Positions 1 to 33,534 of a DNA stretch of 64,000 nt are shown in pieces. The DNA comes from a virus: the IMG/VR virus record IMGVR_UViG_3300035180_002574, positions 117,178 through 181,177 of that record. One strand, given 5' to 3'. The notes beneath the pieces were generated by a model that was given only the letters and a program-made list of their open reading frames with translations, ran no database searches and had not been told where the DNA came from. The first letter of the stretch is position 1. Each line of letters starts with the position of its first letter. Made by a program: the position numbers and the translations under genes.

Positions 1-3000
1 AGATTTTCTTGCCAACCTAATATTTTTACTGTTGGAGTATCCGTATCGTGAATCCATAATACTGGAGATTTATAAAGACCAATAATATCAGATGCAACTT
101 TATCTACACCTGGGGCACTTGTAACGAAGAAGGCTCCCGGGCTATATCCAGTGGTTGTTGAGAATCCAAACTCTCCAAATAAACCTGCATTGTTTGTGAT
201 TGGGATGGATAAATAACCAGTTTGATTAATATTTCTTTCGATAATCCATCTTCTAGCGTTACTGGTTCCTAAGAAAGTGATATTAACAGTTAATTCGCTA
301 ATATCGTTGTGTACAATATCAGTAATCCATGGGCTATCAAAGAAGTTTTCAGTAATAACACCATGAGAAGATGCTCCGTCCCAAGCTGGCATATCTACGG
401 TTCCGAAAGCAACGTAAGCTAAAATAGTCTTTCCATTTCTGTAGATTCTATTGTGGGTTACAATATTATTGGAGCCGGATACTAAAATTCCGATGTTAGC
501 AGGAATGCCAGATAATACGTTTTCATCCATACCTTTAACAGTATTATGGCTGATTTGACATGAGCCTTGTGAGAAAATTCCCCCATACTTATAAAGATAA
601 GTAATTGGAGTAATAGAGGTAGTATACCAATAACCCGCACCAATACTATTTCCAGTTATGATACATGGAGAATCTGGAACATCCGTGTCACTAGAAGACG
701 ATGCCGCTTGATGGATATTAGATGCAACTGTTATTGCATAGCCATAGGCATAGCCACCGGTAAATCCGTAACTTCCCGTTTCATTATCATTAAAATTATC
801 AAGATATGCTTGATCATATGCTACAAGTGAATTATTCACTACCTGTATAGAAGAGTCTGTGGTAGTAGTTATTGCGGCATGTATCCAATTTGATCTATTC
901 TTCGTGATAGTTACATGACCAGAAGCATATACGCACTTATTAACCGTTCTATCTCCAATAAGTGTATTAATCAGCTTGATTGGATACCAATAGTGGCCAG
1001 TGTGATCCATGGTTGCAATCAAGTGACACAAATTGTTTTCGATGATAAGATTTGACGTTTTATCATTTAATGAGTTAGGAACGATATTAATGAACTTAGT
1101 ATCGGCAGAAACCCAATATCCAATTGTTCCACAAATGTTATCTCTAATAACAACATTTTGCGCAATTAAACCTGATAGCATATTTCCGGTTGATGTTAGA
1201 TCAGTTTGAGAAGTTACCAATATCATTTGATTTCTATTGCATGTATTATTTGCAATTAATACATTAGCAACGGTTGGTCTTTGAGAGCCATCAATAGTTA
1301 CCGGCGCCTTATTAATAATAGCGATTGCTGCCGCAACATCATCCGCATTTGTTGAAACATTTAAGTTGTTGAACTTACAATTAGTAATTGTGACATTACT
1401 TAATATAGACGTATTGGTTGGTAGCTCAAAATTAATAAAACTTAATCTGAACTTGCTTCCCAATGGCGGATTATAATTAAATGTAACCCTATCTATAGTA
1501 ATATCTGTTATTGTACTAGCAACATTACAATAAATATATCCTCTTCCAGAATTAACAAAATCTCCAGGATTATAGGTAAATCCATTTGGCAAACCATTAG
1601 CCGGATCTGCTGCATAAATATCTGGTCCAATATTTGGATCATGTGTAGAGGTAACGCTCAATCTTGATAACACAAGGTTATTTGCGCTATTAACTAAAAA
1701 TTGAGAGAAATTTCCAATGAAAGAAGAATCAGTGATTCTAATTCCAGAATTTGGTACGTCAAATTCTGTTTGATGATTTATTAAGAATACGGTTCCCGGT
1801 GCTTGAGAGTCAACATATGCGAATTCAACTTCAACATGATTTCCTTCAAACCTAAAATCTTTATTATTTCCCAATTTGAATACGGCACCAGCATCGGCGG
1901 GAACTGTATAATTAACAAAGATTGTACAATCTTTAAAAGAAACATTTTCTGAATTAGTCAAATCAATAGCTATATTTCCAGACGGAGTAGTATCTACCTG
2001 CAAATGAATTTCGCAATTCTCGAAAGATAAATTTTTTGAGCTTGGTAAAATAGCTAGTTTTTTAAGGAAATCCACCCTCATGTTTCTGATGGTGAGATTA
2101 GATCCTAAGGTAACTAATGCATTGAATGTTAATTGCGCGTTATTTTCTCCTTCAAAAATTGTTGAGTGACCAAAATCCAATATCGTATTGCTGCTGATAG
2201 TTCCTGTAAGAGAATTTGCTCCATTAAAATTTGCAAAACTATTAAATGAATTATTATACTTAACCCAATTTATTATGGCTAGAGGATTCCTAAAATTACC
2301 CTGAGATTGTGCTAGGGTTAATTTCAATGGTAAATTACTATCAGCGTCATTAACATATCTTCTAGCATCTGTAGTCATTGAGAAAGATACATATGCTGGA
2401 AGTGGGGATGTTGTTAGCGTAGCTCCCACGATGTATAATATTGTTAAATCTTTTCTAGTATTGACGATATCTGAGAAAGTATTTGCATCAACAAAATAAG
2501 ATAGCCCGGTATTTGGATTAAATACCTTCATCATTCTGTTTGGATCATTTGGCGTGCCTAACGCAACATCATGGTCTAATAATGGTTGGAATTGATATTC
2601 TCCCTTTGAGTTAACACAAAGAGCCCAGTTTATACTGTAATATGTTCCGGAATAAAACTCTTGTAGAACTGGAATTGCTAATTTAGCATCATTCATTTGA
2701 ATGATCTTTCCATCTACTAGAACTTTACCACCATTAATATGAATTTGATCGTTATGAACAATAAATGGTGATGCCGACAAATCAAAACCAGAAATTACTC
2801 CATTCATATGCAATAATTTCTCTGGCAAAGAAATATAATTCAATGCAGAAGTGCTGAGATCTTTTTCTGAAGTATTTCCAAATTGACGGGCATCTTGAAG
2901 GTATGTGATTTTGTTTGTCACGTCATTTAATTGACATGTGCTAATCATCATTACTTCATCATCTAATGATAATGAAGGAAATAATTGAATATCAATATCT

Positions 3001-5642
3001 TGGTTCGTGAAAGAGCTTAATACGTCATTAGGATCAACATAAAAATCTATATAGTCATTTCCTGTGCTGTCATAGAATCTGGTGATTTCACCTTTTCTGC
3101 CGGTAGTATATTGACCATAAACAGTGTGTAGAGACCCGTCCCACTGAGTTAGCCAACCAGTATATACTCCGGTGGTATCATTATAGCTAGAAAGAGTAAG
3201 TGTAGTTTTTTGGATTTGTCCAAACTGAAAGCCTCTTAATTTTGGAGAAACTTTGATGATATTAAATTTCGCCAATTCTGAGTGAGAATATAATGGAATT
3301 GTACCGTTCACTGTGTTAGTTGAACCGCTAATATTCATTCTGGCGCGTTCATGAGTGAATGTTTTTCCATCCTGAGTAATGTAAACCTCTATATGTCTTT
3401 TAAATGCTGGTGGATTTGAAAGAGAAATATCGGATGCGTTTTCTTTATTAAAAGACACTGAACTGCTATCAAAATATAATGCCACACTACTTCCAATTGG
3501 AAGAGTAGCATATGGAGATAGTCCGGTAGCATGTATAGCATCATACACTACGACATCTGTAGTGGGTGTTGGCGTGCATCCAGAAAATGTTACTGATTTT
3601 ATAGTAAATCTTCCAAAATCAGTTAATGACCCACTTTTATTTAACGATTGAATTACTAAAGTCTTTCCAGCTTTCAAATTAGATGCAGAAAGATCTAGAG
3701 GTATTGAGTAGGTAACTTCTACGTGCCCAGATGGTGATGGCGCGGGAACCGGGTTAATTGCAGTCACGGTTGCTGTCCAATAAACATCACCATATCCATC
3801 AATGACTTGACCAATATCTGGGGCTAGCTGATCTCTTTCGGCTCCATTTACATAATAATTGTTTCTCTTTAAAGGAACAAATAATTTGGTTGCTTGAACG
3901 GCAGCGGCTGGAGAGCCATAAGAAGTCATGTATGGAGGACTTGCAATATTAGCTCCTGTCACACCAAATCCTAACGCATCTTTTATCAATCCTGTACTTC
4001 CAGCAAAAACGTCAACAACATTATTTGGGAAGTTTGATCTGGTAGCTGAAGTATCATATGATCCATCAGATGGATTAACAACTGCATTTAAAATTGAGAA
4101 AGCGGCATTGTTGTATGAGTCTGCTAGTTTTATTCCAAAATTACCATTATAAGAGAATGCAATGAATCTATAATTAAATCCTGGTACTCTAAAAGCATTG
4201 TTAGTTGTATTGACAATATAATCAATAGTATACTTACCTGGTGTTGTTCCTTGATTTCCAGTAATATCAATTGCTGGAAGAATAGTATATCCATCACTTG
4301 GATTACCAGTTGGATAAATTGCAAGATATAAGTTATAGTGACTACTATCTAACTGATCAGGATCAAACCAAACTCCTAGCACTTCGGCGCCTCTTGGAGA
4401 GCCGATAATTAAACTTGGAATTTCTGAGAAAGAATTGTTTGCTGGCGCAACTGCCAATACTCCATATTTATTTGGATTGACTAATGAACGATCAATTCTA
4501 GCAGTTGCGTTGGCTGTATATTGTAAATTCTTTCCGTTTATTCTAATAAGGAACTTTTTAATTAGTCCATTTTGAATATATTTTTTTTCTTTTATTAAGA
4601 AAGGAACTTCTACAGTTCCATAATTGACTCTTATGACGTCGCCAATTTTAACCAAAGCAAATTGTGCATCAAAAGAATTGGATGACAATAAACCTGCTGG
4701 TGGCAATAGTTCTACAATATCATCTCCCTTATCAATATCATCAAATGGCGAACTCATAGTTCCAGTGCTTAATAAGTAGGCTACTGCCGGAACAGTTTGC
4801 ACCAATGCCTGACCATAACCATCCGCTGTTAAAGAAGATGATCTTGATATCTTTGAAATGCCATTACTATATAAATTTTGAATTCTGCTACCAAGCAAAA
4901 AGATACTGGAACTATCGATGAAATCAGCAAATAATTGCAAATCATTCATTGTTTGAGGAATAGTATTAAATCTGTTCGTATTTAAAAATACTCCACTTGC
5001 AGTGTGAGCATAATTAGATGGATAGGTAGACCCATTGTTTGTTTTAATCTTACCTATTGTTCCGAAAGGAGAGCCATCTGCAAATTGATGCGCCAATAAC
5101 TCATTATTTATATCGTTTATTAACGAATAAGATTCAGCATTGTCTCTCAATAAGCCAAATTTATTCTTTAGATATCCAGATGGATCCGAAACTAAAATAT
5201 GTCTTAATTCATGGAAAAAAGAAAATCCAGAAATATGTGGCTCTAATTTTATTCCAGAGTCAGAAATCCATCCAGTGTCAATATTGATTTCTCTTGATAG
5301 GTCTCTTATGTAATTAAACAAATCAGAAGTCCTATAATCAAGACGTAGCTTTGATTCTGGAATGCCTGCATTATCAGCAATTTGTAAGTTAGTTACAGGT
5401 AATGTAACCAATCCTAAACTGGTAATTTCTGATGGTTTAATATGACCATCTGGTTGAATAGCAACGCCAAGTCTTTCAGCGAGAGAATTCATAATACCAG
5501 GGGCACCAATTCCCATTTGCTCTTCTAAAGTAATTACACCTTCGCGAGTAGCATTGATCGCATCGCCACCAATTTCGTTGATGTTATCATTTACGACTGG
5601 AATGCTAGAGTCATCATCAATTGCTGCTGGAAATTTTATCAT
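1..5642 (-). CDS. Giant virion protein (>=1880 aa, 3' end outside window) with parallel beta-helix (tailspike/depolymerase-like) C-terminal region
   Basis: ATG at 5642 (MIKFPAAIDDDSSIPVVNDNINEIGG...). Hand translation was open from the start to about 3770 and in later stretches checked, including the edge (..LWIHDTDTPTVKILGWQEN); absence from the ORF track fits a frame with no stop. Beta-helix-like repeats IANNTC/IRDNIC/IENNLC near 1000-1260. Confidence 0.85.
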   Translation of the reverse strand, partial: MIKFPAAIDDDSSIPVVNDNINEIGGDAINATREGVITLEEQMGIGAPGIMNSLAERLGVAIQPDGHIKPSEITSLGLVTLPVTNLQIADNAGIPESKLRLDYRTSDLFNYIRDLSREINIDTGWISDSGIKLEPHISGFSFFHELRHILVSDPSGYLKNKFGLLRDNAESYSLINDINNELLAHQFADGSPFGTIGKIKTNNGSTYPSNYAHTASGVFLNTNRFNTIPQTMNDLQLFADFIDSSSIFLLGSRIQNLYSNGISKISRSSSLTADGYGQALVQTVPAVAYLLSTGTMSSPFDDIDKGDDIVELLPPAGLLSSNSFDAQFALVKIGDVIRVNYGTVEVPFLIKEKKYIQNGLIKKFLIRINGKNLQYTANATARIDRSLVNPNKYGVLAVAPANNSFSEIPSLIIGSPRGAEVLGVWFDPDQLDSSHYNLYLAIYPTGNPSDGYTILPAIDITGNQGTTPGKYTIDYIVNTTNNAFRVPGFNYRFIAFSYNGNFGIKLADSYNNAAFSILNAVVNPSDGSYDTSATRSNFPNNVVDVFAGSTGLIKDALGFGVTGANIASPPYMTSYGSPAAAVQATKLFVPLKRNNYYVNGAERDQLAPDIGQVIDGYGDVYWTATVTAINPVPAPSPSGHVEVTYSIPLDLSASNLKAGKTLVIQSLNKSGSLTDFGRFTIKSVTFSGCTPTPTTDVVVYDAIHATGLSPYATLPIGSSVALYFDSSSVSFNKENASDISLSNPPAFKRHIEVYITQDGKTFTHERARMNISGSTNTVNGTIPLYSHSELAKFNIIKVSPKLRGFQFGQIQKTTLTLSSYNDTTGVYTGWLTQWDGSLHTVYGQYTTGRKGEITRFYDSTGNDYIDFYVDPNDVLSSFTNQDIDIQLFPSLSLDDEVMMISTCQLNDVTNKITYLQDARQFGNTSEKDLSTSALNYISLPEKLLHMNGVISGFDLSASPFIVHNDQIHINGGKVLVDGKIIQMNDAKLAIPVLQEFYSGTYYSINWALCVNSKGEYQFQPLLDHDVALGTPNDPNRMMKVFNPNTGLSYFVDANTFSDIVNTRKDLTILYIVGATLTTSPLPAYVSFSMTTDARRYVNDADSNLPLKLTLAQSQGNFRNPLAIINWVKYNNSFNSFANFNGANSLTGTISSNTILDFGHSTIFEGENNAQLTFNALVTLGSNLTIRNMRVDFLKKLAILPSSKNLSFENCEIHLQVDTTPSGNIAIDLTNSENVSFKDCTIFVNYTVPADAGAVFKLGNNKDFRFEGNHVEVEFAYVDSQAPGTVFLINHQTEFDVPNSGIRITDSSFIGNFSQFLVNSANNLVLSRLSVTSTHDPNIGPDIYAADPANGLPNGFTYNPGDFVNSGRGYIYCNVASTITDITIDRVTFNYNPPLGSKFRLSFINFELPTNTSILSNVTITNCKFNNLNVSTNADDVAAAIAIINKAPVTIDGSQRPTVANVLIANNTCNRNQMILVTSQTDLTSTGNMLSGLIAQNVVIRDNICGTIGYWVSADTKFINIVPNSLNDKTSNLIIENNLCHLIATMDHTGHYWYPIKLINTLIGDRTVNKCVYASGHVTITKNRSNWIHAAITTTTDSSIQVVNNSLVAYDQAYLDNFNDNETGSYGFTGGYAYGYAITVASNIHQAASSSSDTDVPDSPCIITGNSIGAGYWYTTSITPITYLYKYGGIFSQGSCQISHNTVKGMDENVLSGIPANIGILVSGSNNIVTHNRIYRNGKTILAYVAFGTVDMPAWDGASSHGVITENFFDSPWITDIVHNDISELTVNITFLGTSNARRWIIERNINQTGYLSIPITNNAGLFGEFGFSTTTGYSPGAFFVTSAPGVDKVASDIIGLYKSPVLWIHDTDTPTVKILGWQEN

Positions 5643-6221: not shown

Positions 6222-6950
6222 TTATGTGGCATCAATATAAAAGCCAGCTATCCCATAATCTGTATTACATGGCGTTATACAACCATTCCCATGATAAAAA
6301 GCGGCTAAATAATATCTTTTACCTGCCGTCATAGTTCCTGCCGGAATTCTTGCAATTGCATGACCCTGATTTGTTAAATGTAACGAAAAACTCTGCAAAT
6401 TAACAAAAGAAAGATTGTCAGTATATAATTTAAAATCAACAATCCCATCAATAAAATTAAAAGAGCCTAAAGACTGTGTCAAATTAAATTGAAAATACCC
6501 ATCTGTTGCGGCTGATTGTGTATGACTGTTATAACCATCACTAATTATATTAGATATAGATTTTTGAACAATACACCTTTGAGTGGCACTATATGATGAT
6601 TTCCAAATATTGGATACACCAGAAAACAAAGCAAAAACGTTTCTATCTCCAAAAAAATATTCAGAACCATCCTCGCCCGGAATACCTCCCTGTAGATTTC
6701 CAGATACCATACTAATAGTAATATCCGTTATCCCAGTGGAATTATCTGCTTGTCCGAGAATTTCTTTTGTATCATTGTCAATAACAAAAACTGTACCACC
6801 ACTAATATAATCGCTTACATATTTTACGTGAATGGTAAATGTCATTGATTGACCACAATTAATTCCATTTGGATTATCCATAACAAATGTAGTTGTAGTA
6901 CCTCTAACATTTGTCATATTTATTTGCATGAATCCATTAATTATTGACAT
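6222..6950 (-). CDS. Ig-like beta-sandwich virion protein
   Basis: 242-aa beta-rich ORF in the structural operon; two DGY motifs. Confidence 0.5.
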   Translation of the reverse strand: MSIINGFMQINMTNVRGTTTTFVMDNPNGINCGQSMTFTIHVKYVSDYISGGTVFVIDNDTKEILGQADNSTGITDITISMVSGNLQGGIPGEDGSEYFFGDRNVFALFSGVSNIWKSSYSATQRCIVQKSISNIISDGYNSHTQSAATDGYFQFNLTQSLGSFNFIDGIVDFKLYTDNLSFVNLQSFSLHLTNQGHAIARIPAGTMTAGKRYYLAAFYHGNGCITPCNTDYGIAGFYIDAT

Positions 6951-8338: not shown

Positions 8339-9913
8339 TCAAGGAATTATTATTTTATGCGTATGACCAAGAGCAGGCTGAACAACACCATTTACAATTG
8401 AATGGTTATGACCCTGTGATACTGCTGTTGTTTGATTTATTTGAGATACTGATAAGATCTTCTCATTTATCACAATTTCATGTGTGTGCGGTGGTATTCC
8501 TAGAGAAAATCCTATTCCAGTATTTAATTTGGAAGGGAACATACTGGTGTCTCTGAAAATTCTAACCTGATAAGCCGGATCAGTCTTTCTAATTCTTTGG
8601 GCTCTAAACTTTTGTCCGCCCATTAGTGGTCCAAGAGTATTGTTTCTTGTAACTCCTAAAATTTCATATCTAAATTCTTCATTATTATCTTCGTCAAACA
8701 AAACAATAACATCTCTTTGCTTAATAATAGGTGCCGCCTGCATCCAACCATCTATTGTAAACTCTGATTCTAAACCAGCCTCATATACTTTTGTTTGTTC
8801 TTCAGCCGGGCTGACACGAACCATAATTCTACCATCAGATCTTCTTGGGTTGAAAAATTGCTCATATCCAATAACAAATTTTGTACCATGACATTTTGGA
8901 CATCTATCGTCTGGATTTTCTCCAGAAGCTAAGTAACAGGAACATATAATCCCAGTTCGTTCTCTTCTAATCAAAACTGCTGGACGACCATCAATGCTTA
9001 AGTGCAATTCTTGTCTTTGATTATTCTGGTCTTGTAATGACATGCCTCTTAAAATTTGCATATTTCCGTAACCATCAATACAGCCCATTTCTCCACCAAT
9101 GTAACTTCCGACACAAGTGCCATTCAATAATTGAACTGGATCTGTTCTATGATATCCTGCGTAATCATAAGCCGGATAATCAAGATTGCCTGGTTCACTG
9201 GCACTTAAATCGGTGCTCAAATAGTCTTTGGTAACTTGACGATAACCATCAACCAAAGTGAAAGAATTGTTAGGATATTCAAACCTGGCTTGACAAGCGA
9301 AAATTCTATCATAAATTTTAAATTCGGTTAATGTAAAAACGCTAACCGCTGGATCCCAAGTAAAATATCCATCATATCCGCCCACAGTATGTGAAGTTGC
9401 TATTGTATTGTGATAGCCTCTTTGAGCCAAAGATGCTAAAATCAAATTATTATTTACAGAGTCAACCGCAAGATATTGAATTAACTCCACTCCCACTTTA
9501 ATTATTCCAATAGTTGGGAATCCAGTAACATCCAACAAAGGAATGATGATGTCAGTTGCCGTAATATCATGTCTTAATAAACTAGTTGGATAAACTCTTA
9601 AATTATCATAAGCAATTGGAAGTAGCGATAGATCAGTTAAATTTTTATCATACTCTACTGGTCTAACTGCAAAAAAATATTCTTGCCCAGGAGTTAAATC
9701 AATAATGTTTGCCTCCAGAGAACCATCAATGGATACATATTTTACACCATCATAAAATACTCTATTTTTTTGGGTAGAATAATAAATATGATAAGCGATT
9801 CCATAGCCATCCGATGGAATCGCTTGAAACCACTTGACATTAATGGTCTGACCGTCGCCCAATGAGGAAACAGCGTCTGTGCCGACATTTACGTATTGCG
9901 GGTAATAAACCAT
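8339..9913 (-). CDS. Neck/head-closure-like protein with N-terminal Fn3-like domain, Cys cluster and C-terminal HxH repeats
   Basis: IIDLTPGQEYFFAVRPVEY (Fn3-like); CSC...CPKC; PHTH, GHNH, GHTH at the C-terminus; four DGY. Confidence 0.5.
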   Translation of the reverse strand: MVYYPQYVNVGTDAVSSLGDGQTINVKWFQAIPSDGYGIAYHIYYSTQKNRVFYDGVKYVSIDGSLEANIIDLTPGQEYFFAVRPVEYDKNLTDLSLLPIAYDNLRVYPTSLLRHDITATDIIIPLLDVTGFPTIGIIKVGVELIQYLAVDSVNNNLILASLAQRGYHNTIATSHTVGGYDGYFTWDPAVSVFTLTEFKIYDRIFACQARFEYPNNSFTLVDGYRQVTKDYLSTDLSASEPGNLDYPAYDYAGYHRTDPVQLLNGTCVGSYIGGEMGCIDGYGNMQILRGMSLQDQNNQRQELHLSIDGRPAVLIRRERTGIICSCYLASGENPDDRCPKCHGTKFVIGYEQFFNPRRSDGRIMVRVSPAEEQTKVYEAGLESEFTIDGWMQAAPIIKQRDVIVLFDEDNNEEFRYEILGVTRNNTLGPLMGGQKFRAQRIRKTDPAYQVRIFRDTSMFPSKLNTGIGFSLGIPPHTHEIVINEKILSVSQINQTTAVSQGHNHSIVNGVVQPALGHTHKIIIP

Positions 9914-11145: not shown

Positions 11146-12045
11146 TCAGTATATTCTACGCGCGCGCAAGTGCCTCATACGACTAAATGCCGGATTAATA
11201 GCACTATTCATTGAGAAAACTCCCAAGCCCTTTGGAGCTGGTCGCAAACTGTTCTTTATATATTTCAATTTATCCCAATAATGAGTTAACAATGTACTAT
11301 ATTGTGTGTTTAATAGTTCGCTAACTGTTGGTGGAGTAAAATTGATGCTATTATCAGTAATTTGAAATTCGCGACCTCTTTCAATCAGTGCCTTGGATGC
11401 TAGGGCATAAAGAGTAGCTCCTTCAACGAGTATTTCTCCAAATTGTTCTACGAAAGCATCATCGTCATACTGGAAGAAAGTAAAATATGGGACCTGATTA
11501 AAATCCCAAAGGGCAGTTGCTAAAAATGTATATAGCATATCAATAGCAAAAATATCGCAATCTACATAAATAACATTTCCATATGAATCTGTAGATTTAG
11601 CTTTTCCAGAACTATTAAGTCTGGCTTTTAAAGACTTAATCAGTTTATTCATATTTTTTAAAGCCGCCTGGGAATAATTGAATCCAGGATCATCACCCAT
11701 ATGAACATAACCGTCAGTATTTAATGCCGGCGTTTGTGTATGAGAAACAATGAATTCAAATGGTGATTCAACCCTAAATCCATTAATATACGCAGTCCAA
11801 ATATCATTAAATACTCCATAAGGACCATTAATTGGCACTGTAAAAATATAAGAGTATTTTCCTATTCCAATTCTAGTAACTCCAGCTGAGGTAGCTGCTA
11901 ATAGAATAAGACCGCTGGGTTGAATAATAGAAATCTTAGGGAAGGAATCCGCGTCCACTGGATTTCCCGCTGTGTCCTTAAATTGAACCACTAAGTTAAC
12001 TTGATCTGTAACGTCGATCAATTCTCCGCGAGCTTTGATTGTCAT
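11146..12045 (-). CDS. Head-tail adaptor/neck-like protein with N-terminal Ig-like domain
   Basis: N-terminal beta domain (GIGKYSYIFTVP) followed by a helical adaptor-like half; position in the operon. Confidence 0.5.
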   Translation of the reverse strand: MTIKARGELIDVTDQVNLVVQFKDTAGNPVDADSFPKISIIQPSGLILLAATSAGVTRIGIGKYSYIFTVPINGPYGVFNDIWTAYINGFRVESPFEFIVSHTQTPALNTDGYVHMGDDPGFNYSQAALKNMNKLIKSLKARLNSSGKAKSTDSYGNVIYVDCDIFAIDMLYTFLATALWDFNQVPYFTFFQYDDDAFVEQFGEILVEGATLYALASKALIERGREFQITDNSINFTPPTVSELLNTQYSTLLTHYWDKLKYIKNSLRPAPKGLGVFSMNSAINPAFSRMRHLRARRIY

Positions 12046-15636: not shown

Positions 15637-15677
15637 ATTTGCTCCAAAATAAATATATTCAAATATATGTACCAATA

Positions 15678-18088: not shown

Positions 18089-18097
18089 AATAATTCC

Positions 18098-18775: not shown

Positions 18776-18778
18776 AAT

Positions 18779-22600: not shown

Positions 22601-22788
22601 GTTCCGGCAGTGCCGGCACCCACCACTAATTGCCTTCCTGTAGTATCTAGCGCAATTAATCTATTATTTGATCCATCTGATCCGGCAATCAGTAAAGCTC
22701 TATTTGATGCCGTTGTTGTTGAGGCATTGGAAATTGAAATTTCATAACCATCAGATGAATATAATATAGACGTCGGAGTATTTCCCAT
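19609..22788 (-). CDS. Long tail fibre/adhesin-like protein (1059 aa)
   Basis: S/T/G-rich repeats; N-terminal module shared with 22828..24834; lectin-like C-terminal domains; extended -10 TGATATAAT upstream. Confidence 0.65.
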   Translation of the reverse strand: MGNTPTSILYSSDGYEISISNASTTTASNRALLIAGSDGSNNRLIALDTTGRQLVVGAGTAGTPAGGVITIQGSPSGTPVPVSVPGLASLTSMFGSATPPAGSASGFSDGTNMQMGRVFDVDSGAGTQYVLGVNLRQSSSGGSVELGTGSNPLTINSTFASNVGSNLPTQAVLLGGSDSVNIQALRTSASAPGGTEYGLITRNIPSGTQTVSGSGNFTVIGTGTDNTANSTAKLPVLVAKANTSAPTWTDGNMAPLSVDGSGNLRITGSVSTSNPSVSTTGTAPPASATYIGGSVTTLPPTYTTGQMSALSLTTAGALRIDGTATYQPVAGAVYTSYQPDPSSTDTLVNNGIALDTSGRLETHGSITTDEGSFRDDFVGTTLTTTLAGTVTFTNNSNIVTGSGTNFTKSVLVGQFIKKSSDAETLYVLVSSVNSDTSLTLSSVYTGTTAATTAVVSNWKTFTGSGGSLTISNSNLVIASGTTSGSSTYIQRKADYLPFSCSAWVNISQNIANQTAFFGFIDTASTPANPIKQVMVQISGTNNNQVSFITSSLNASYATEITNVILPAGASLLNNNLFQIDITGAKATLSINGTLVAVNNLHIPGPYDQLNYVVGITNTGTPASNTTLYCDSVYFCNSDRLEVANSFIGDPLNTLSSIKDTNNRTIRATISQEIKVAGLYTLSDLTNKYELDTRQWDTLTATGGTAVHVPALSALRVSVTGTSGSTAAICTNTYFKYQAGYTQLIALSIINSDSGQANQVREWGYFDGYNGLFFRLSGTALNIVERSNTSGSVVDTIIPQNLWNVDKLDGTGLSSITLDVTKGNLYEIEVQWYGVGTVRYFIDNILVHESLHANTLTVPYTATAQLPVQFRIANSGASSAGSLTMICARVGAQGQIHEPFEWSFSAFTASDLLVGTTEIPIMTIRPKSLYNSITNRMVILPKVLTVSTEGYKMSWKLIYNATLTGASYTSASALSGVEYDVSATSYSGGELILRGFLNNDIDSDYVDLSPLFDMLGRKLRMPGFAGLGSNTSQDTLTLVATCESVGKTRARANITWVEVR

Positions 22789-22827
22789 ATGATTTCCTTA
22801 TTATCTTATTATATCAAGATAATATTA

Positions 22828-24834
22828 TTATGTAAATTCTGTAATTTTAGCAGAGCCAGCAACGGAGGTCCAGATAGCATCTATCTGTCCAGTATAATTA
22901 ACTGGAATATCCCAAGAACCCTGTCCAAAGATCTTTACAGTAAAACTTGTGCTGGAGGCAGTGGCTCCACACTTAACGAGAACGGTTCCATTATTAGAAT
23001 CATTATAAATTGTTCCGCCCAACCTGTTTGCATTAGAAGCTAGCAAAGTAGTATTTGTTCCAGTAGCTGCAACAGATGTTACTGTCGCAATGGAAGATTT
23101 AACTGGGGTTGCTGTAGTTGCTAATGCGCCAGTTGCATCAGTCTTAAGACTTCTTGCATTGGTTCCATCAGAACCTGCAATTAATACTGGGTTTCCAGCA
23201 ACGGCGGAACCATTTGCTGCTGCACCAATAACAATTTGTCTTCCAGATGAATCTGTAAGTAATGCTTTTAAATTAGAGCCATCTGAACCACCGGACAAAC
23301 TGGCAGAAGCTGGAGCGGCAGATCCAGTAGTTCCAATAGATGCGTTAGTAAAGTTTCCTGTACCAGCGTTGGCTGTTACTGTCCAAGTGCCAGATTGAGT
23401 GGCTAGAATATTTGAATCGCTAGATACCGTTACTCTTGGAATACCAGCACCAGAAGTTCCTGTACCAGTTACAACGTTACTTCCACCAAATTGTGTAACG
23501 TTTTGTGACCAAGGAGCACCACCTTGATTTGCTGTTACAGTTCCGCTTACCGGCTGAGTTACAGCGGAGCCGTCAACACGCAATGCACCGCCAGTAGTTA
23601 ATGATAAATAATTGAAAGTATTATTTGTATATGTTGGGGCTGAAGTTGTTACATAGCCGTCAATATTTGTTGCAATTGACGTATTTGGGCTAATAGAAAC
23701 AACCAATGCTGGATCGGTGGCGGTTGCTGCTGTAGATGCAGGTTTAACAGCCGCGGTATTTCCTCCGGCGTTAATAGATGTTAACCAAGGAGTGCTATTA
23801 GCAGTATTTCCTGGCTGAACAGTCCATGTACCAGATTGAGTTGCTAAAATGTTTGAGTCATTGGCAACAGTAACTCTTGGGATTCCAACTCCAGATGCGC
23901 CAGTTCCAGTTACAACGTTATTTCCGCCAAACTGAGTGATATTTTGGGTCCAAGGAGCGCCACCCTGGTTAGAGGTGACTGTTCCTGAAACTGGAATTGG
24001 TGTGCCAGAAGCATTACCTTGAACGGTTACTAATCCGGTAGAAGATCCAGATCCAGCAGCGGTTGTACCAACAATGGTAGCATTCAAGTTTGCGGCAGTT
24101 GCCTGAGAAACTTGAATTGGGGTCATGCTTGCAATACCCTGAACGGTTACAACTCCAGTTGCAGCAGATCCAGCAGAACCAGTACCAATAACATTGAAAT
24201 TGCCAGTGCCTGCATTTGCTGTTACCGTACCGGAAACTGGTTGAGTTACAGCTGATCCGTCAACCTTTAATGCTCCGCCAGCAGATACAGTTGCTGAATT
24301 TCCACCCTGATTAATTGTAAATAGCCATGGAGTGCTATTAGCAGTATTTCCAGGTTGAACTATCCACGTACCAGATTGAGTTGACGCAACGGTACCAGAA
24401 ACAGTTTGGGTTCCTGAAGGGATGTTTCTTGTAATTAGTCCAAATTCAGTTCCAGCAGGATTGGAGGTTGACCCTCTAAGAACTTGTAAGTTTGTACCAT
24501 CAGAAACACCTATTTGAGTTGAAGATCCTGGTATAGCAGAACCGTTTACTCCGATAGAAGCGTTGTTTGCGGTAATAGAACCGGAAATTGGAATTGGAGT
24601 TCCAGATGCTGAACCTTGAATGGTTATTACACCACCAGCCGGGGATCCTGCGGTTCCAGCACCCACCATAACTTGTCTGCCAGAAGAATCTACTGATAAA
24701 TATCTTGCGTTAGCGCCATCAGAACCAGCTAAAATTAGCGCTGAGGTACTTGCTGGTATTGCAATACCATTTTTTACTGTTACTTCATAGCCGTCTGAGC
24801 TATAAAGAATTGCAACTGGCGAATTAGAACCCAT
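22828..24834 (-). CDS. Tail fibre-like protein with internal duplications (668 aa)
   Basis: Repeated TQSGTWxV (3x) and NQGGAPWxQNxTQFGG.NVVTGTG.SG.GIPRVTV (2x) units. Confidence 0.65.
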   Translation of the reverse strand: MGSNSPVAILYSSDGYEVTVKNGIAIPASTSALILAGSDGANARYLSVDSSGRQVMVGAGTAGSPAGGVITIQGSASGTPIPISGSITANNASIGVNGSAIPGSSTQIGVSDGTNLQVLRGSTSNPAGTEFGLITRNIPSGTQTVSGTVASTQSGTWIVQPGNTANSTPWLFTINQGGNSATVSAGGALKVDGSAVTQPVSGTVTANAGTGNFNVIGTGSAGSAATGVVTVQGIASMTPIQVSQATAANLNATIVGTTAAGSGSSTGLVTVQGNASGTPIPVSGTVTSNQGGAPWTQNITQFGGNNVVTGTGASGVGIPRVTVANDSNILATQSGTWTVQPGNTANSTPWLTSINAGGNTAAVKPASTAATATDPALVVSISPNTSIATNIDGYVTTSAPTYTNNTFNYLSLTTGGALRVDGSAVTQPVSGTVTANQGGAPWSQNVTQFGGSNVVTGTGTSGAGIPRVTVSSDSNILATQSGTWTVTANAGTGNFTNASIGTTGSAAPASASLSGGSDGSNLKALLTDSSGRQIVIGAAANGSAVAGNPVLIAGSDGTNARSLKTDATGALATTATPVKSSIATVTSVAATGTNTTLLASNANRLGGTIYNDSNNGTVLVKCGATASSTSFTVKIFGQGSWDIPVNYTGQIDAIWTSVAGSAKITEFT

Positions 24835-24845
24835 AATTTACCCCA

Positions 24846-25370
24846 TTAAATAACAGTTCTTATCCTATTAATTTCGAAAACACCACTATAATTAATAGTA
24901 TCCACTGCTGTAACTAAAATTGTTGTACCGTCTGTATCATATACCTTCCAAGTAATAGTAGATATAGTTTTATTTGGATTATATACGTAATTTTCTTCTA
25001 AAATCTTATATGTTTTGGTAGCATCTGTATACCAAATTACAGATGTTGGAAATGGGCTAGCTGTAGGCGTAATCTCTCTATAAAGAGCAGGTCCAAATGA
25101 TTCATAAGGACCACCGCCATCCGCCAAATGTATAAGTTGTCTTAAACCTTTATGAGTATTTACGGTTACTTCATCCGCGCCGCCAACTCCAACCCATGCA
25201 GGAGTTACTGCAGTTAACATCCATAAACTGTTGTCATCTAATTGTCTAGCTAATTTACCAACATCGGATGATAAAAATCCGGTGGCACTAGTACGTTCCG
25301 AGGCATTATTATAAACAAACGCATACGGAAGATGTATATTTTCTGGCTGTAAGTTTTTATGCAAACTCAT
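24846..25370 (-). CDS. Hypothetical virion protein
   Basis: 174-aa ORF in the operon; TAATG-type overlap. Confidence 0.7.
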   Translation of the reverse strand: MSLHKNLQPENIHLPYAFVYNNASERTSATGFLSSDVGKLARQLDDNSLWMLTAVTPAWVGVGGADEVTVNTHKGLRQLIHLADGGGPYESFGPALYREITPTASPFPTSVIWYTDATKTYKILEENYVYNPNKTISTITWKVYDTDGTTILVTAVDTINYSGVFEINRIRTVI

Positions 25371-25996
25371 TAAACCGCCTTTTTCAATGCGTCACCATCA
25401 TTGATATAAGTAATGCTTCCGTCTATATCTAAGATAAAACTATTAGCAGATAGTGTTAAAATGCCTCCAACTACTTTTGCATCAAGAAATCCATCAGTCA
25501 AAACATTTACCGTACCAACAGTGCCATAAGGAACGCCATCAATTTGCACACCTACACCAGATGGTAAGCTAACAATTTGCTTAATTGCATCTTCCACATT
25601 ATTGGCACTAAGTCCAGTACCTCTTGGGTCAAATCCTACTTTTTTTGCACCCGCTGGATATCTGAATTGAACTGTTCCACCAGTAGAACTGGTTATCGTT
25701 TCATTAATAGAAAATGATGTGTCACTCAAGACAGAATTGACGGTATAATATCCATCTGCAATTCCGCCGGGCAACGTTCCATAAATCCAAGCAATGTCAT
25801 TTGGCTCGACAGGATGATCAGTGCTATATAAAATGCCATTACCATCCGAAGCCACATTAATATTGATTATATTTGGCGTAATTGTAGAAACAATAGATGT
25901 AGATAAGTAGATGCTATTATCCCCATATCCATCTGAGGCTAACTCATATGCATCTACTATATCTGTATCAAATATGTCTTGTTTTCTAATTGGCAT
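25370..25996 (-). CDS. Hypothetical virion protein
   Basis: ATG at 25996; two DGY motifs. Confidence 0.7.
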   Translation of the reverse strand: MPIRKQDIFDTDIVDAYELASDGYGDNSIYLSTSIVSTITPNIININVASDGNGILYSTDHPVEPNDIAWIYGTLPGGIADGYYTVNSVLSDTSFSINETITSSTGGTVQFRYPAGAKKVGFDPRGTGLSANNVEDAIKQIVSLPSGVGVQIDGVPYGTVGTVNVLTDGFLDAKVVGGILTLSANSFILDIDGSITYINDGDALKKAV

Positions 25997-26026
25997 CAAA
26001 ATTTATGCCAAATTATTCATTTGAAA

Positions 26027-26446: not shown

Positions 26447-26466
26447 AATACTTTCTTTCTTTTATT

Positions 26467-26700: not shown

Positions 26701-26719
26701 CTTACATCATATTATATCA

Positions 26720-28228
26720 TTAAGTCTTAATAAAGTAATTTATGTGGTCGTTTTTGTTTATCATTTGATAGAATGTTACTGAAGTCGTGCTTGTTTCTGC
26801 ATAATCATTTCCAGCAGCCACTGGTCCTGGATCTCTTAATAATCCACGAGTAAATATCCACAAATTCTGACCATTTCCAGTACCATCTAATGTGTATGAA
26901 ATTCCACCAGGCAATGTGTGGGCGGTATTTGCCGAAATATGTCCAGACAATCTTTCAATCGTACGGGTTACGTGAGAAGAGGTAATTGCGTTAGATAGTG
27001 CCTGTAAAGATGCCGTTATTGTCTGTCCACTTGTTAAAATAGATCCAGTATAAGTTCTATTTCCAATTTGGGAATTCAAAGTATTTAAAGCATCAACAAC
27101 GGTTGGTGTAGCATTAGGCAAATTATAGAATGGGAAATATGTTGTTGTATTTGTTAATAAACCATTAAGATTGGTAGTTGTACTAACCGTACCTAAAGTT
27201 TCTAAAATATTATTAACTTGACCACTCAAAGCTGCATCCGTCAAAACACCAAGTGCCGGAACAGTTCTAAAAGCGTTCTCATCTAATTGGTCTAGTCTTT
27301 CATTATAACCATACAATAAATTAATTGTTGTTGGCTGTCCAGCTTCCCAAGTATATGCTGTGTGTGTTCCGGTATAATCTGCCCAGAATGGAGATGAATA
27401 GAAATGAACTTCTACAGAGTTTGGAGAAGTAGATAATCCCGCATAGGTAACACCAAAAATTCTTTCACCGGCATGAGGTCCCGTAAGTACGGTTAATTCA
27501 CTTCCACTGGAATATCCATCTGTAATATGAACATAACATGAAGTCCAGTCCCCACTAAATGGGGCTGCATCGAAACAAGGAACTCCAGTATTATCAACAG
27601 CATCAGCATGTTTTAAATTTCCAACAGATGATAAAGTTACCAAAGTATTGGTTGCAGCTACAGAAACATTAAAAAATGCTCTGTTAACGTTATAAGCAAT
27701 GGCGTCTGTTGTTTTTCCTGCAATATTTGTTAAATTGGCGCTAACATTTGTACCAACTGCGGTTGGTCTTTGATATGTTGGAACAGCGTCATACCAATTT
27801 GTGGTACCTTTAATTCCTTTACGATCTGTTCTGGTATAATTGATGTCATCTTCTAAAGAATATGGCTGTCTTTCTGTCCATACAATGGCGCCGTTGTTGG
27901 CATCAGATGGTACGGCATTAACATTGTAAATATCAACAGAGGTTGATGAGTTAAAATTAGCAATTAAAAATGTTCCATTGTTTGCAGAAGATGCTGCGCC
28001 AGAAATAGTTAACATATTAGTTACGCTAGCTGCAGTCATTCCTGTTAGACCAGTTATTGTTGCAATTCCCGAAGAAACCGTGGTAATACTAGCAGCAGAG
28101 CCAGTTTGTCCGGCTATTGCCGCACCAAATCCAGCAGCTTCATCAGATAATGTTAATGTTTGAGATTGAGTGTATGAACCAGCAATATCAAGAGCTTGGT
28201 TTAGTGCATTTTGTCTAGAAAAACCCAT
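26720..28228 (-). CDS. Virion structural protein (T/S/N-rich)
   Basis: 502 aa; SD GAGGA; C-terminal ..G....DY......F small beta domain. Confidence 0.6.
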   Translation of the reverse strand: MGFSRQNALNQALDIAGSYTQSQTLTLSDEAAGFGAAIAGQTGSAASITTVSSGIATITGLTGMTAASVTNMLTISGAASSANNGTFLIANFNSSTSVDIYNVNAVPSDANNGAIVWTERQPYSLEDDINYTRTDRKGIKGTTNWYDAVPTYQRPTAVGTNVSANLTNIAGKTTDAIAYNVNRAFFNVSVAATNTLVTLSSVGNLKHADAVDNTGVPCFDAAPFSGDWTSCYVHITDGYSSGSELTVLTGPHAGERIFGVTYAGLSTSPNSVEVHFYSSPFWADYTGTHTAYTWEAGQPTTINLLYGYNERLDQLDENAFRTVPALGVLTDAALSGQVNNILETLGTVSTTTNLNGLLTNTTTYFPFYNLPNATPTVVDALNTLNSQIGNRTYTGSILTSGQTITASLQALSNAITSSHVTRTIERLSGHISANTAHTLPGGISYTLDGTGNGQNLWIFTRGLLRDPGPVAAGNDYAETSTTSVTFYQMINKNDHINYFIKT

Positions 28229-28272
28229 TATATATCCTCGTGTAAGCTAATTTCCAAAACTATTACTATTTA

Positions 28273-29798: not shown

Positions 29799-29804
29799 GC
29801 GTGC

Positions 29805-31727: not shown

Positions 31728-32741
31728 TCAGGCGCCTACGACGACTGATTTCCTTCCGGCTGCGACACCACGAGGATTGACGATTGCCAAACCAATGATT
31801 TCGCTTACAACCCAGCCTAATTTAAGCTGTTTTGGCTCATCGGCAGGAAGCACTTCAATGTCCTGACGGATTGGCATAACTCCAACGAATTCTGGGTCGG
31901 CTGCGCCATATATCGTTCCAGGTGGAACGATCTTGGATACCATAATATCAGTACCCCAAATATGAGCATAAAGACCAGTTTGAAGAACTTCACGCATGGT
32001 GACTGGATCGAAATCACCGCCACCAGTTCCTTGACCACCACCTGAACCCCACTTAAGGATATCAGTAAATTCATTGATGTTCATGAAGTACTTGGTTGTA
32101 ACTAAGTCCCAACGATCGATTTGTTGCTTGATTTCAACAAGGTCTCTCTTCAAAAGACCGGCGTCAGCAATGTCAGTCAAGGTGTTTTCGACTGATGCGG
32201 CAGCGTCTAATGCTGCGAAGATGTTAGCATCTTCCTGAGCCATAATTTCTTGACGAGCCTTCTGAACAGCTCTGTCGATTACGTTGAATCTACGACGCTT
32301 GACTTCGGCGATTCTAACAGTTGGGTTTGCAAAGATTTCAAACTCTGGAACAACAACACGGTCACCGAAAACACGGGACTCTGGTCCTGTACCGTTGCTA
32401 GAAATAACAACTGCTGCTACGTCGATATCGCGATCGTAGGTTGGCATTGCGCCCTGTGGAAGAGGGTCTACAACAAGTGCTCTACGTGCAATTCCGTGGT
32501 AATCTAAGTTTCTACGGATTGGGTTTGCCATTGCCTGAGCAAGAGCAATCTTTCCATCCTGAGTCATAATTGCGCGAGAAATTAATTCATCACGCTTGTC
32601 GTCACTTAATTGAGGCTGTCCTGCAAGACCAATATTTGATGGCGCATTTTCTTCCAAAATTGATGCATATTTAACAAGAGTTGTTAACGCATCCTTCAAA
32701 GATGAGGCGTTCATTTCGCCTTTGCTATTGAACATATTCAT
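31728..32741 (-). CDS. Major capsid protein (HK97-like fold)
   Basis: 337 aa; SD AGGAG; downstream of protease/scaffold and decoration genes, followed by a strong terminator; capsid-like motifs (DPLPQGA..YDRD, IMAQED..IF, GWVVSEIIG..IVNPRG). Confidence 0.85.
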   Translation of the reverse strand: MNMFNSKGEMNASSLKDALTTLVKYASILEENAPSNIGLAGQPQLSDDKRDELISRAIMTQDGKIALAQAMANPIRRNLDYHGIARRALVVDPLPQGAMPTYDRDIDVAAVVISSNGTGPESRVFGDRVVVPEFEIFANPTVRIAEVKRRRFNVIDRAVQKARQEIMAQEDANIFAALDAAASVENTLTDIADAGLLKRDLVEIKQQIDRWDLVTTKYFMNINEFTDILKWGSGGGQGTGGGDFDPVTMREVLQTGLYAHIWGTDIMVSKIVPPGTIYGAADPEFVGVMPIRQDIEVLPADEPKQLKLGWVVSEIIGLAIVNPRGVAAGRKSVVVGA

Positions 32742-32883: not shown

Positions 32884-33534
32884 TTAGGCAGCTGGTGGAT
32901 TGAAGTAGAAGGTTGCGAAGCCTAATACTGCAGTTCCAAGAGCAGATGCTAACTTGCTTGGGGTGTTTACCAAAGAACCGTTGGTCTCGAATTCAACGAA
33001 ACGTCCAACTACTGGAGCTGAACCAACAGCGTTTACTGAACCAACTGGAGTCAAAAGACCCGTTGCGGTATAGGTAAGTGCTGCGCCTGTGTCAAGAGTT
33101 GCATTGGTTGGAACCAATCCGGTTGCTGCAGTGTCAACTGCATCAAGTGATACAGCGTACATACCTGGTTTTTCCCAAAGAGTTACTTTGCCTGAACCAG
33201 TTGCGGTGTGAGGTCCAAGAACTGCGCCGCCAGTTGATACCTGACCAACAGTTCCACCGACTACTGTACCGAAAAGAGTACCGTACCCGGAAATACCATC
33301 ATCAGCTAACATCAATGGACGAGAGCTGGAGGTAAGAGTTCTAGTAGCTACGACTCTCTTGTTTGGATTTACATATCCATCAAATACGTCGAAAGCTGCT
33401 TTATCAGTTGCTGCACTTGCAACAATAGACTTAAAGGTAAGTAATTCTCCACCCTTAAGTGTCAAAACTTCTGTATCAAGACCATCAAATTGACCTAATG
33501 GTTGAGTACCTGGTTGTAATAGTTTTAAAGCCAT
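32884..33534 (-). CDS. Capsid decoration/cement-like protein
   Basis: Small G/A/T-rich gene directly upstream of the capsid gene; paralogous to 41036..41722. Confidence 0.6.
   Translation of the reverse strand: MALKLLQPGTQPLGQFDGLDTEVLTLKGGELLTFKSIVASAATDKAAFDVFDGYVNPNKRVVATRTLTSSSRPLMLADDGISGYGTLFGTVVGGTVGQVSTGGAVLGPHTATGSGKVTLWEKPGMYAVSLDAVDTAATGLVPTNATLDTGAALTYTATGLLTPVGSVNAVGSAPVVGRFVEFETNGSLVNTPSKLASALGTAVLGFATFYFNPPAA

What the first reader, a model, noticed from the sequence alone, without database searches (positions are those of the whole stretch)
1..33534. A D-G-Y tripeptide marks neck/fibre-module proteins and is absent from the head-cargo cluster
Seen: by eye at least 23 DGY in 12 proteins (1..5642 x3; 6222 x2; 8339 x4; 11146; 12048; 15274 x2; 16556 x2; 19609 x2; 22828 x2; 25370 x2; 26720; 32884), seven as xDGYG. 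In the ORFs from 33.6 to 64 kb I count roughly 35-40 DG dipeptides and none is followed by Y. Simple composition would give only about 2 in the left module. The proteins have different folds, so homology does not explain it. Inference: a linear tag on outward-facing virion proteins, such as a Tyr modification site (glycosylation, phosphorylation or nucleotidylation; the phage encodes a Cys phosphatase and an odd NTase), a docking site for a shared chaperone or decoration, or a metal-binding turn.
Basis: partly seen in the sequence, partly recalled or inferred. Interest (0 to 1): 0.8.

Follow-up and report, generated by a model that had tools for sequence, protein, structure and literature searches.

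The report
DGY tag on megaphage outer proteins
The outer virion proteins of this giant, phage-G-like phage carry the tripeptide Asp-Gly-Tyr about twelve times more often than chance, in exposed loops. A sister lineage that lacks the motif also lacks the glycosyltransferase genes at the matching spot, one of which every motif-rich genome checked keeps, so this is probably an undescribed surface tag, perhaps a sugar-attachment site, though no modification has been shown.

Summary
There are 23 in-frame DGY in 12 ORFs of window 1-33534, against 1.85 expected from per-protein shuffles, and none in 33.6-64 kb. DGY is by far the most enriched of the 8000 tripeptides. Codons vary, so the signal is in the protein, not the DNA.

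The window is the end of a 181-kb fragment of a roughly 450-kb megaphage related to Bacillus phage G. In 27 related tail loci the enrichment is 13-fold. It is specific to D-G-Y: NGY, DGF and the permutations are not enriched. The flanks share no similarity.

Where I could place them, sites sit in loops of FN3 and Ig-like domains. Across orthologues they are islands of conservation, yet they also shift, duplicate and arise anew.

A sister lineage has the same tail genes at 25-47% identity but almost no DGY (3 against our 20 in 16 orthologous pairs). At the syntenic spot it lacks three glycosyltransferase genes. One of them, a GT-B enzyme, is present in all four complete DGY-rich relatives.

My best reading is a tag read by another factor, most likely a glycosylation sequon. 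This is unproven.

The absence from the head cluster is not significant on its own.

This scan has noted the same motif before on other genomes (8 earlier notes).

The parts
3..5642 (-). Giant tail protein, 2032 aa in the full record and cut by the window edge. DGY at residues 274, 450 and 615 (nt 4815-4823, 4287-4295, 3792-3800).
   Evidence: In 17 orthologues the three sites are kept in 17, 15 and 11 sequences, and DGY occupies 20 alignment columns in all. The sister-lineage orthologue (2184 aa) has none.
6222..6950 (-). 242-aa protein with a weak Ig-like (Big_3_5) N-terminus. DGY at residues 138 and 150.
8339..9913 (-). 524-aa protein with an N-terminal FN3 domain, a weak neck/stopper-like fold match and C-terminal CxC/CxxC and HxH motifs. 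DGY at residues 35, 181, 222 and 280.
   Evidence: Alignment A1. FN3 assignment. In 120 homologues there are 2-9 DGY each in 24 columns, and 40 carry a DGYDGY tandem. Distant homologues P0267 and P0265 have replaced every site.
11146..12045 (-). 299-aa conserved protein. DGY at residue 111.
   Evidence: The site is kept in 17 of 17 orthologues. The sister orthologue (309 aa) has none.
12048..12386 (-). 112-aa free-standing Ig-like protein. DGY at residues 20-22, at the start of the loop between strands 11-17 and 33-38.
   Evidence: AF2 model with pLDDT 87.6, with Ig-like fold matches. Orthologues carry 0-2 DGY at shifting positions and in insertions within this loop.
15274..15675 (-). 133-aa protein with two DGY six residues apart (DGYTPTDGYG, residues 45 and 51).
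   Evidence: The first copy sits in an insertion that most orthologues lack.
16556..18088 (-). 510-aa tail-fibre-like protein. DGY at residues 248 and 395.
   Evidence: PHROG tail-fibre segment at residues 325-389. Weak match to a distal tail protein in the PDB.
19609..22788 (-). 1059-aa virion structural protein (C-terminal phrog_1645 domain). DGY at residues 13 and 766.
   Evidence: The N-terminus ILYSSDGYE is paralogous to that of 22828..24834. No orthologue in complete relatives G007 and G009.
22828..24834 (-). 668-aa glycine-rich fibre-like protein. DGY at residues 14 and 392.
   Evidence: Part of the variable cassette 16.5-29.7 kb.
25370..25999 (-). 209-aa protein. DGY at residues 23 and 82.
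26720..28228 (-). 502-aa protein. DGY at residue 237.
   Evidence: No family match.
32884..33534 (-). 216-aa protein just upstream of the major head protein, at the position where phage G has its capsid-decoration gene. DGY at residue 52.
   Evidence: The site is kept in G007 and G009, and G007 has a second DGY. There is no sequence similarity to phage G gp26, so the decoration role rests on position only.
31728..32741 (-). No DGY.
   Evidence: phrog_2522 E 2.9e-79. 55% identity to phage G major head protein.
33680..64000 (-). Head and packaging cluster: portal 52726-54540, large terminase 54605-57508, protease-bearing 1187-aa protein 43818-47381, PTP-fold phosphatase 48306-49070. No DGY.
   Evidence: 0 observed against 1.3 expected here. 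Across 80 related loci 6 against 49, at the 0.7th percentile of comparable tripeptides.

Best explanation
DGY is a lineage-specific short linear motif under positive selection. It is displayed on exposed loops of the outer virion proteins (fibre, baseplate, neck and decoration-type proteins) of a clade of roughly 450-kb phage-G-like megaphages. Something else reads it; the proteins do not need it to fold.

The most likely reader is the clade-conserved GT-B (GT4-like) glycosyltransferase. Its gene follows directly after the last fibre gene (genome 79318-80460, outside the window). A dTDP-glucose 4,6-dehydratase and strain-variable GT2 enzymes lie beside it. On this reading DGY is a sequon for cytoplasmic glycosylation, probably on the Tyr hydroxyl, that coats the outer virion.

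Shown: the enrichment, its specificity, the loop location in two domains, conservation together with turnover, dispensability in a sister lineage, and the co-occurrence with GT-B.

Inferred: that a factor reads the motif, that this factor is GT-B, and that Tyr is the modified residue.

I put the 'read by another factor' part at about 0.65 and the full statement including GT-B at about 0.42.
For: 1. Enrichment is 12-fold here and 13-fold (367 against 27.4) in 27 related loci. DGY is the top tripeptide by a wide margin.
2. The order and chemistry are strict. NGY, EGY, DGF, DGW, DAY and the five permutations lie near expectation, except YDG at about 3-fold (it overlaps YDGY) and DSY at about 2-fold. 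Generic turn propensity would not give this.
3. The flanks share no similarity. Codons vary.
4. Location: the AB and BC loops of an FN3 domain, and the long loop between strands 2 and 3 of a confidently modelled Ig-like protein.
5. Evolution:
- The whole motif is kept in 62% of orthologue comparisons, against 23% for all tripeptides and 34% for DG-not-Y. The flanks are less conserved than average.
- DGY occupies 38 alignment columns with 13 singletons, against 2-13 columns for the permutations. In 120 homologues it occupies 24 columns against 0-8.
- Tandem and shifted copies occur: DGYDGY, DGYRADGY, TDGYADGY.
6. Dispensability: a sister lineage with syntenic orthologues at 25-47% identity has 3 DGY (expected 2.35) where ours has 20 (expected 2.44). 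The site that is invariant in 119 of 120 clade members is also lost there.
7. Co-occurrence:
- GT-B is present next to the fibre module in 4 of 4 complete DGY-rich relatives and in more than 1000 homologous proteins (the best 120 are 69-80% identical).
- GT-B is absent from phage G.
- GT-B and both GT2 genes are missing from the sister's syntenic block. That block keeps the flanking 1308-like, 347-like, RmlB-like and ResIII genes.
- The two GT2 genes are in only 2 of 4 DGY-rich genomes, so they cannot be the universal reader.
8. No Pkinase, Fic or Sulfotransfer_3 gene is conserved in the clade.
9. T4, phiKZ, SPO1 and 0305phi8-36 show no such clustering.
Against: - No modification has been observed. 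No GT-B or GT4 enzyme is known to me to glycosylate tyrosine.
- The co-absence rests on one sister lineage. About 105 kb of its contig, and any part of that genome beyond the contig, were not seen.
- GT-B could instead act on host envelope or other glycans.
- Some sites look structural. Positions -4 to -1 are hydrophobic. At site 181 Y is replaced by I, L, V or F. In phage G the tripeptide sits inside paralogous hairpin-like repeats.
- The phage's early proteins do not avoid DGY (3 against 3.1). Some avoidance might be expected if mis-tagging were costly.
- The sheath faces outward but has no DGY in our genome, although its expectation is only about 0.2.
- The sister lineage still has 4 DGY in one 1117-aa protein.
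Confidence: 0.42

Rival explanations
1. DGY is a tag read by a partner that is not an enzyme. The partner could be a shared assembly chaperone, a cement or decoration protein, or a host-surface molecule that recognises the DGY turn. No covalent modification is involved.
For: The same evidence of specificity, loop location, turnover and dispensability applies. None of it requires an enzyme.
Against: No candidate partner was identified. Tandem and variable copy numbers (2-9 per homologue) fit stoichiometric docking poorly. The co-absence of the glycosyltransferase genes in the DGY-poor sister would then be coincidence.
Confidence: 0.18
2. DGY is itself a small ligand-contacting element, like a paratope, on the loops of Ig-like and FN3 domains and fibres. 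The Tyr ring and the Asp carboxylate would bind glycans or cations of the host envelope or the environment directly. Nothing else reads the motif.
For: Sites lie in CDR-like loops of Ig-like and FN3 domains. From general knowledge, Tyr, Asp and Gly dominate natural and synthetic binding loops, and Ig-like domains on phages are thought to bind carbohydrates weakly. Copy number varies between strains, as expected for an adhesive trait.
Against: The ordered tripeptide is enriched 10-13-fold while YGD, GDY, DYG and GYD are not. That is hard to explain for a compositional 'sticky' patch placed in many unrelated structural contexts. No three-residue autonomous binding site of this kind is known to me. 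This reading does not explain the link with GT-B.
Confidence: 0.17
3. DGY is a structural element, a strand-turn-Tyr hairpin corner, that happens to be favoured in the beta-rich tail proteins of this lineage.
For: A hydrophobic run precedes the motif. Tyr 37 begins a strand in the FN3 model. At site 181 Y is replaced by I, L, V or F, and DG is invariant at site 20. Phage G has DGY inside conserved repeat modules such as vLvDGYlvKiG.
Against: NGY and DGF are not enriched. Sites shift, duplicate and sit in indel-rich loops. Syntenic orthologues of a sister lineage fold without them, including the otherwise invariant site 222. Unrelated large myoviruses show no enrichment.
Confidence: 0.07
4. The enrichment is an artefact of composition, hidden paralogy or a DNA-level signal.
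For: Two of the 23 sites are paralogous N-termini. In phage G the enrichment comes from paralogous repeats.
Against: The shuffle maximum was 8 of 3000 runs against 23 observed. The dipeptide-aware P is 5.5e-7. Flanks are unrelated. Codons vary and the signal is frame-specific. Independent columns outnumber those of the permutations about sixfold.
Confidence: 0.01

Closest known systems
Bacterial protein-glycosylation sequons: the Bacteroidota general O-glycosylation motif D-(S/T)-(A/I/L/V/M/T), Campylobacter PglB D/E-X-N-X-S/T, and cytoplasmic HMW1C N-X-S/T (from general knowledge)
   Same: A three- to five-residue linear motif, starting with an acidic residue, lies in exposed regions of many unrelated proteins. 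A transferase reads it. Sites are gained and lost freely while the overall density is maintained.
   Different: The candidate acceptor here would be Tyr, not Ser, Thr or Asn. The reaction would have to occur in the cytoplasm on phage proteins.
Virion glycosylation of mycobacteriophages by phage-encoded glycosyltransferases (Freeman et al. 2023, recalled from memory; papers citing it appear)
   Same: Phage glycosyltransferase genes sit next to structural genes, and the products decorate outward-facing virion proteins.
   Different: As I recall, the mycobacteriophage targets are capsid and tail-tube C-terminal Ser/Thr-rich stretches. No defined tripeptide is involved, and the enzymes and phage lineage are different.
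Tyrosine O-glycosylation of S-layer proteins in Paenibacillus alvei and Thermoanaerobacter (review PMC2943079)
   Same: There, O-glycans are linked to Tyr (beta-Gal or beta-Glc to Tyr) with rhamnose-rich adaptors. They are built by dTDP-sugar enzymes and GT4-family transferases. The phage cluster likewise has a dTDP-glucose 4,6-dehydratase, a GT4-like GT-B enzyme and GT2 enzymes with weak rhamnosyltransferase similarity.
   Different: S-layer glycans are assembled on a lipid carrier and transferred outside the membrane by an oligosaccharyltransferase. I could not retrieve a sequon for those sites. Phage virions assemble in the cytoplasm.
Ig-like and FN3 decoration domains on tailed phages, such as T4 Hoc (general knowledge)
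   Same: Two of the DGY carriers are an FN3 domain and a free-standing Ig-like protein, and the motif lies in their apical loops.
   Different: No shared tripeptide is known on such domains. Here the motif also occurs on fibres and giant baseplate-type proteins.
Giant tail proteins gp420-gp431 of Bacillus phage G, the nearest cultured relative (portal 34%, major head protein 55% identical)
   Same: They also show DGY in excess: 14 against 2.2 expected.
   Different: There the tripeptide sits in paralogous repeat modules (NGRHTDGYWYVRG x5, vLvDGYlvKiG x5), not in scattered unrelated loops. Phage G has no GT-B homologue.

Membership tests
Glycosylation sequon | The motif is over-represented in the target class of proteins beyond composition | tested here: met
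   23 against 1.85 here, and 367 against 27.4 in relatives. DGY is the top tripeptide.
Glycosylation sequon | The motif lies in exposed, accessible regions and is not needed for folding | tested here: met
   Sites lie in FN3 AB and BC loops and in an Ig-like inter-strand loop. Sister-lineage orthologues lack the sites. Only 3-4 of the 23 sites were placed on a model; no coordinates or accessibility values were available.
Glycosylation sequon | A cognate transferase is encoded and co-occurs with the motif | tested here: inconclusive
   GT-B is in 5 of 5 DGY-rich genomes. It is absent from phage G and from 64 kb of the DGY-poor sister, including the syntenic block. This is one contrast only, and the rest of the sister contig was not seen.
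Glycosylation sequon | A glycan is covalently attached at the motif | not testable with these tools
   This needs mass spectrometry or glycan staining of virions or co-expressed proteins.
Structural beta-turn or tyrosine-corner-type motif | Chemically equivalent variants (N for D, F for Y) are favoured as well | tested here: not met
   In relatives NGY is 24 against 37, DGF 36 against 33.5, and DGW 8 against 6.7.
Structural beta-turn or tyrosine-corner-type motif | The motif is required at fixed positions of the fold across homologues | tested here: not met
   Positions shift and duplicate within loops. P0267 and P0265 have replaced every conserved site. The 16 orthologous pairs hold 20 against 3.
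Homologous repeat or shared domain | Sequence similarity extends beyond the tripeptide | tested here: not met
   The pairwise BLOSUM62 score of 28 flanking residues averages -23.2 for DGY sites and -24.9 for random anchors. The only exception is the N-termini of 19609 and 22828.
DNA-level motif (restriction, methylation or recombination site) | A fixed nucleotide word, independent of reading frame | tested here: not met
   Nine codon combinations are used. 23 of 24 coding-strand matches are in frame, and there is 1 on the other strand.

The most novel reading that the evidence does not exclude
Megaphages of this clade encode a previously unknown cytoplasmic system that glycosylates protein tyrosine. 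A GT-B transferase recognises the three-residue sequon Asp-Gly-Tyr and starts a deoxyhexose-containing glycan. Strain-variable GT2 enzymes extend it. The result is a sugar coat on fibres, baseplate, neck and decoration proteins of the virion.
Probability: 0.3. Interest if true: 0.85.

Novelty: new variant of a known kind. Interest (0 to 1): 0.72.

Why it matters
If DGY is a sequon, it would be the first defined acceptor motif for virion glycosylation in a phage. It would also be a rare case of enzymatic Tyr glycosylation in the cytoplasm. A three-residue, easily transplanted tag with one candidate transferase would be directly useful for glyco-engineering.

For phage biology it would show that the largest known phages coat their outer surface. 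That bears on host recognition, survival in soil and water, and evasion of adsorption traps.

If the sequon idea is wrong, a tripeptide kept at 10-13 times its expected density across hundreds of genomes, and erased in a sister lineage, still marks an unknown interaction. The interaction is now testable with one small protein (112 aa) and one enzyme.

Tried and rejected
- DNA-level cause: rejected because codons vary and the signal is frame-specific.
- Hidden homology of flanks: rejected.
- Avoidance outside the tail module: not shown. The early region has 3 against 3.1 and the head 0 against 1.3. In 80 related head loci the count is 6 against 49, but many tripeptides are equally rare there because the loci are related. 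By rank DGY lies at the 0.7th percentile, which is only suggestive.
- Compensation between the AB-loop and BC-loop sites of the FN3 domain: Fisher P 0.056 without phylogenetic correction. I treat this as not significant.
- Phage G as a cultured model of the tag: rejected. Its DGY excess lies in paralogous repeats, and a second apparent cluster at 391-421 kb lies in small non-structural genes.
- PDB sequence searches for DGY carriers gave nothing useful.
- Literature searches for 'DGY motif' and 'Asp-Gly-Tyr' found nothing relevant. The paper on Tyr glycosylation sites of SpaA is not held.
- The AF2 model of the 524-aa protein is poor for residues 211-300, so sites 222 and 280 could not be placed.
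- The search for related loci with the 1059-aa protein and with P0308 found no usable loci.
- The lineage of P0310 shows only about 3-fold DGY in small fragments. GT-B was not found there, but the records are 8-26% complete, so this is uninformative.
- One look-up of encoding contigs was wasted on a wrong minus-strand reference.
- Complex prediction was not run. An enzyme-substrate pair is a poor case for that test, and neither outcome would have moved my odds much.
Full report
**What is there**

The window is the last 64 kb of a single 181,177-bp virus record. I took the long non-overlapping ORFs and counted DGY.

- Per-protein shuffles give 1.85 ± 1.37, with a maximum of 8 in 3000 runs.
- Among all tripeptides DGY stands alone (P 8e-18; the next is 3e-7).
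- A quarter of all DG are followed by Y, and 43% of all GY are preceded by D.
- A dipeptide-aware expectation (6.6) still leaves P 5.5e-7.
- The codons follow ordinary usage (nine combinations). The degenerate DNA word occurs 24 times on the coding strand, 23 of them in frame, and once on the other strand. The signal is therefore in the protein.

**Where it lies**

In the whole record there are 41 DGY. Of these, 38 fall in genome 80.5-150.8 kb (expected 3.9). The early region has 3 against 3.1, and the head and packaging end has 0 against 1.3.

- 31728-32741 is the major head protein. It is 55% identical to that of Bacillus phage G and carries no DGY.
- The portal, large terminase and a protease-bearing 1187-aa protein lie in the right part.
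- The sheath and a tape-measure-like protein lie just left of the window. Neither has DGY.
- 29805-31025 is a CCA-adding enzyme.
- 48306-49070 is a PTP-fold phosphatase, and 59997-60770 is a PolyA_pol head domain only.

**The lineage**

More than 300 IMG/VR contigs share the portal at 71-89% identity. Complete relatives are 447-480 kb. The nearest cultured phage is phage G, with 34% portal identity.

- In 27 loci around orthologues of the 524-aa protein, DGY is 367 against 27.4 expected. It is the top of 2902 tripeptides; the next is 4.5-fold.
- Only the ordered D-G-Y is enriched. NGY, EGY, DGF, DGW, DAY and the permutations are not, except YDG at about 3-fold (it overlaps YDGY) and DSY at about 2-fold.
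- T4, phiKZ, SPO1 and 0305phi8-36 show no clustering of the DNA word.
- Phage G has 14 against 2.2 in its giant tail proteins, but there the tripeptide sits in paralogous repeats.

**Not homology**

The 28 residues flanking the sites are no more alike than random segments. The only shared feature is a hydrophobic run at positions -4 to -1.

**Structure**

- The N-terminus of the 524-aa protein is an FN3 domain. Our site 35 lies in its BC loop. Most relatives carry a DGY in the AB turn instead, and ours reads GDGQ there.
- The 112-aa protein is a confidently modelled Ig-like sandwich with pLDDT 87.6. Its DGY opens the long loop between strands 2 and 3.
- In orthologues that loop holds 0-2 DGY at shifting places, some within insertions. 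Examples are ETKDGYGQRGDNNTSFDGYL and DSDGYRSDGYL.

**Evolution**

- The whole motif is kept in 62% of orthologue comparisons. The figure is 23% for all tripeptides and 34% for DG-not-Y. The flanks are less conserved than average.
- New sites also arise far more often than for control words. DGY occupies 38 alignment columns against 2-13 for the permutations. In 120 homologues it occupies 24 against 0-8, each homologue carries 2-9 copies, and 40 have a DGYDGY tandem.

**The natural experiment**

A search of cluster representatives found homologues of the 524-aa protein down to 26% identity. Most carry 3-10 DGY. A few carry none, and in those every conserved site is replaced, including the site that is invariant in 119 of 120 clade members.

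One of these, P0267, lies on a 169.7-kb JGI contig. I walked along it. It holds the same tail and fibre module.

- In 16 orthologous pairs at 25-47% identity, our phage has 20 DGY (expected 2.4) and the sister has 3 (expected 2.35).
- These proteins therefore do not need DGY.

**The candidate reader**

Directly after our last fibre gene, outside the window, come these genes in order:
- a GT-B (GT4-like) transferase
- a GT2
- an Fpg glycosylase
- an unknown gene
- a second GT2
- a dTDP-glucose 4,6-dehydratase

Their distribution is as follows:
- GT-B is present at that place in all four complete DGY-rich relatives and in over 1000 homologous proteins.
- GT-B is absent from phage G.
- The two GT2 genes occur in only two of the four relatives.
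- The sister's syntenic block keeps the 1308-like fibre, the unknown gene, the dehydratase and the ResIII helicase. It lacks GT-B and both GT2 genes.
- There is no tblastn match to them in the 64 kb seen, and no glycosyltransferase family on record there.
- No kinase, Fic or sulfotransferase is conserved in the clade.

**Reading**

The motif behaves as a selected tag on exposed loops that another factor reads. GT-B is the best candidate for that factor. The link rests on one lineage contrast, and no modification has been seen, so I give the full model about 0.4.

**Earlier work**

Eight earlier notes of this scan describe the same motif on related genomes and reach a similar tentative reading. 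The sister-lineage contrast, and the narrowing from several glycosyltransferases to GT-B, come from tests made here.

Noticed in passing
window 54605-57508 (-): The large terminase is 967 aa and matches terminase profiles in two separate stretches (188-430 and 535-939), with extra N-terminal sequence. Only 3 of 80 related loci gave an orthologue covering at least 60% of it. This suggests an insertion (intein or homing element) or a split gene in relatives.
   Followed up: no
window 43818-47381 (-): A 1187-aa protein has a head-maturation-protease-like domain at residues 105-333. The right-hand cluster is strongly enriched in PPP, PAP and APP tripeptides, which points to proline-rich linkers.
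   Followed up: no
window 48306-49070 (-): A PTP-fold Cys phosphatase (Y_phosphatase2, 39 bits) lies inside the head module and is conserved in 45 related loci. It may be a packaged or injected enzyme.
   Followed up: partly
window 29805-31025 (+) and 59997-60770 (-): A complete CCA-adding tRNA nucleotidyltransferase lies on the opposite strand in the middle of the structural genes. A second, shorter protein has only the PolyA_pol head domain.
   Followed up: partly
window 15678-16550 (-): A patatin-like phospholipase (E 6e-29) is encoded among the neck and tail genes.
   Followed up: no
window 8339-9913 (-), residues about 320-345 and 470-524: The 524-aa protein has invariant CxC...CxxC cysteines and three conserved HxH motifs (PPHTHE, GHNHS, GHTHK) at its C-terminus. 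These recall the metal-binding HxH motifs of T4-type fibres and spike tips.
   Followed up: no
window 16556-29709: This block of about 12 genes, including the 1059-aa and 668-aa DGY carriers, has no orthologues in complete relatives G007 and G009. Those genomes carry other large genes there without DGY. It is a strain-variable cassette between the head and neck genes.
   Followed up: partly
window 14248-14784 (-) and 40210-41010 (-): HNH and GIY-YIG homing-endonuclease genes are inserted in the structural modules. The few DGY found in related head loci mostly lie in a recurring Cys-rich ORF on the opposite strand that I took to be HNH-like from its sequence context (not tested).
   Followed up: no
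genome 72897-74261 (outside the window; L114:10898-12259): A TubZ-like tubulin gene lies next to the sugar cluster. It is absent from the sister lineage's syntenic block.
   Followed up: no
sister contig JGI 3300045700 Ga0486075_000049, 91213-94566 (L150:14143-17496): A 1117-aa protein without an orthologue in our phage carries 4 of the sister's 7 DGY. All four have a similar context (vYDGYi, ivDGYi), which suggests a repeat as in phage G.
   Followed up: no
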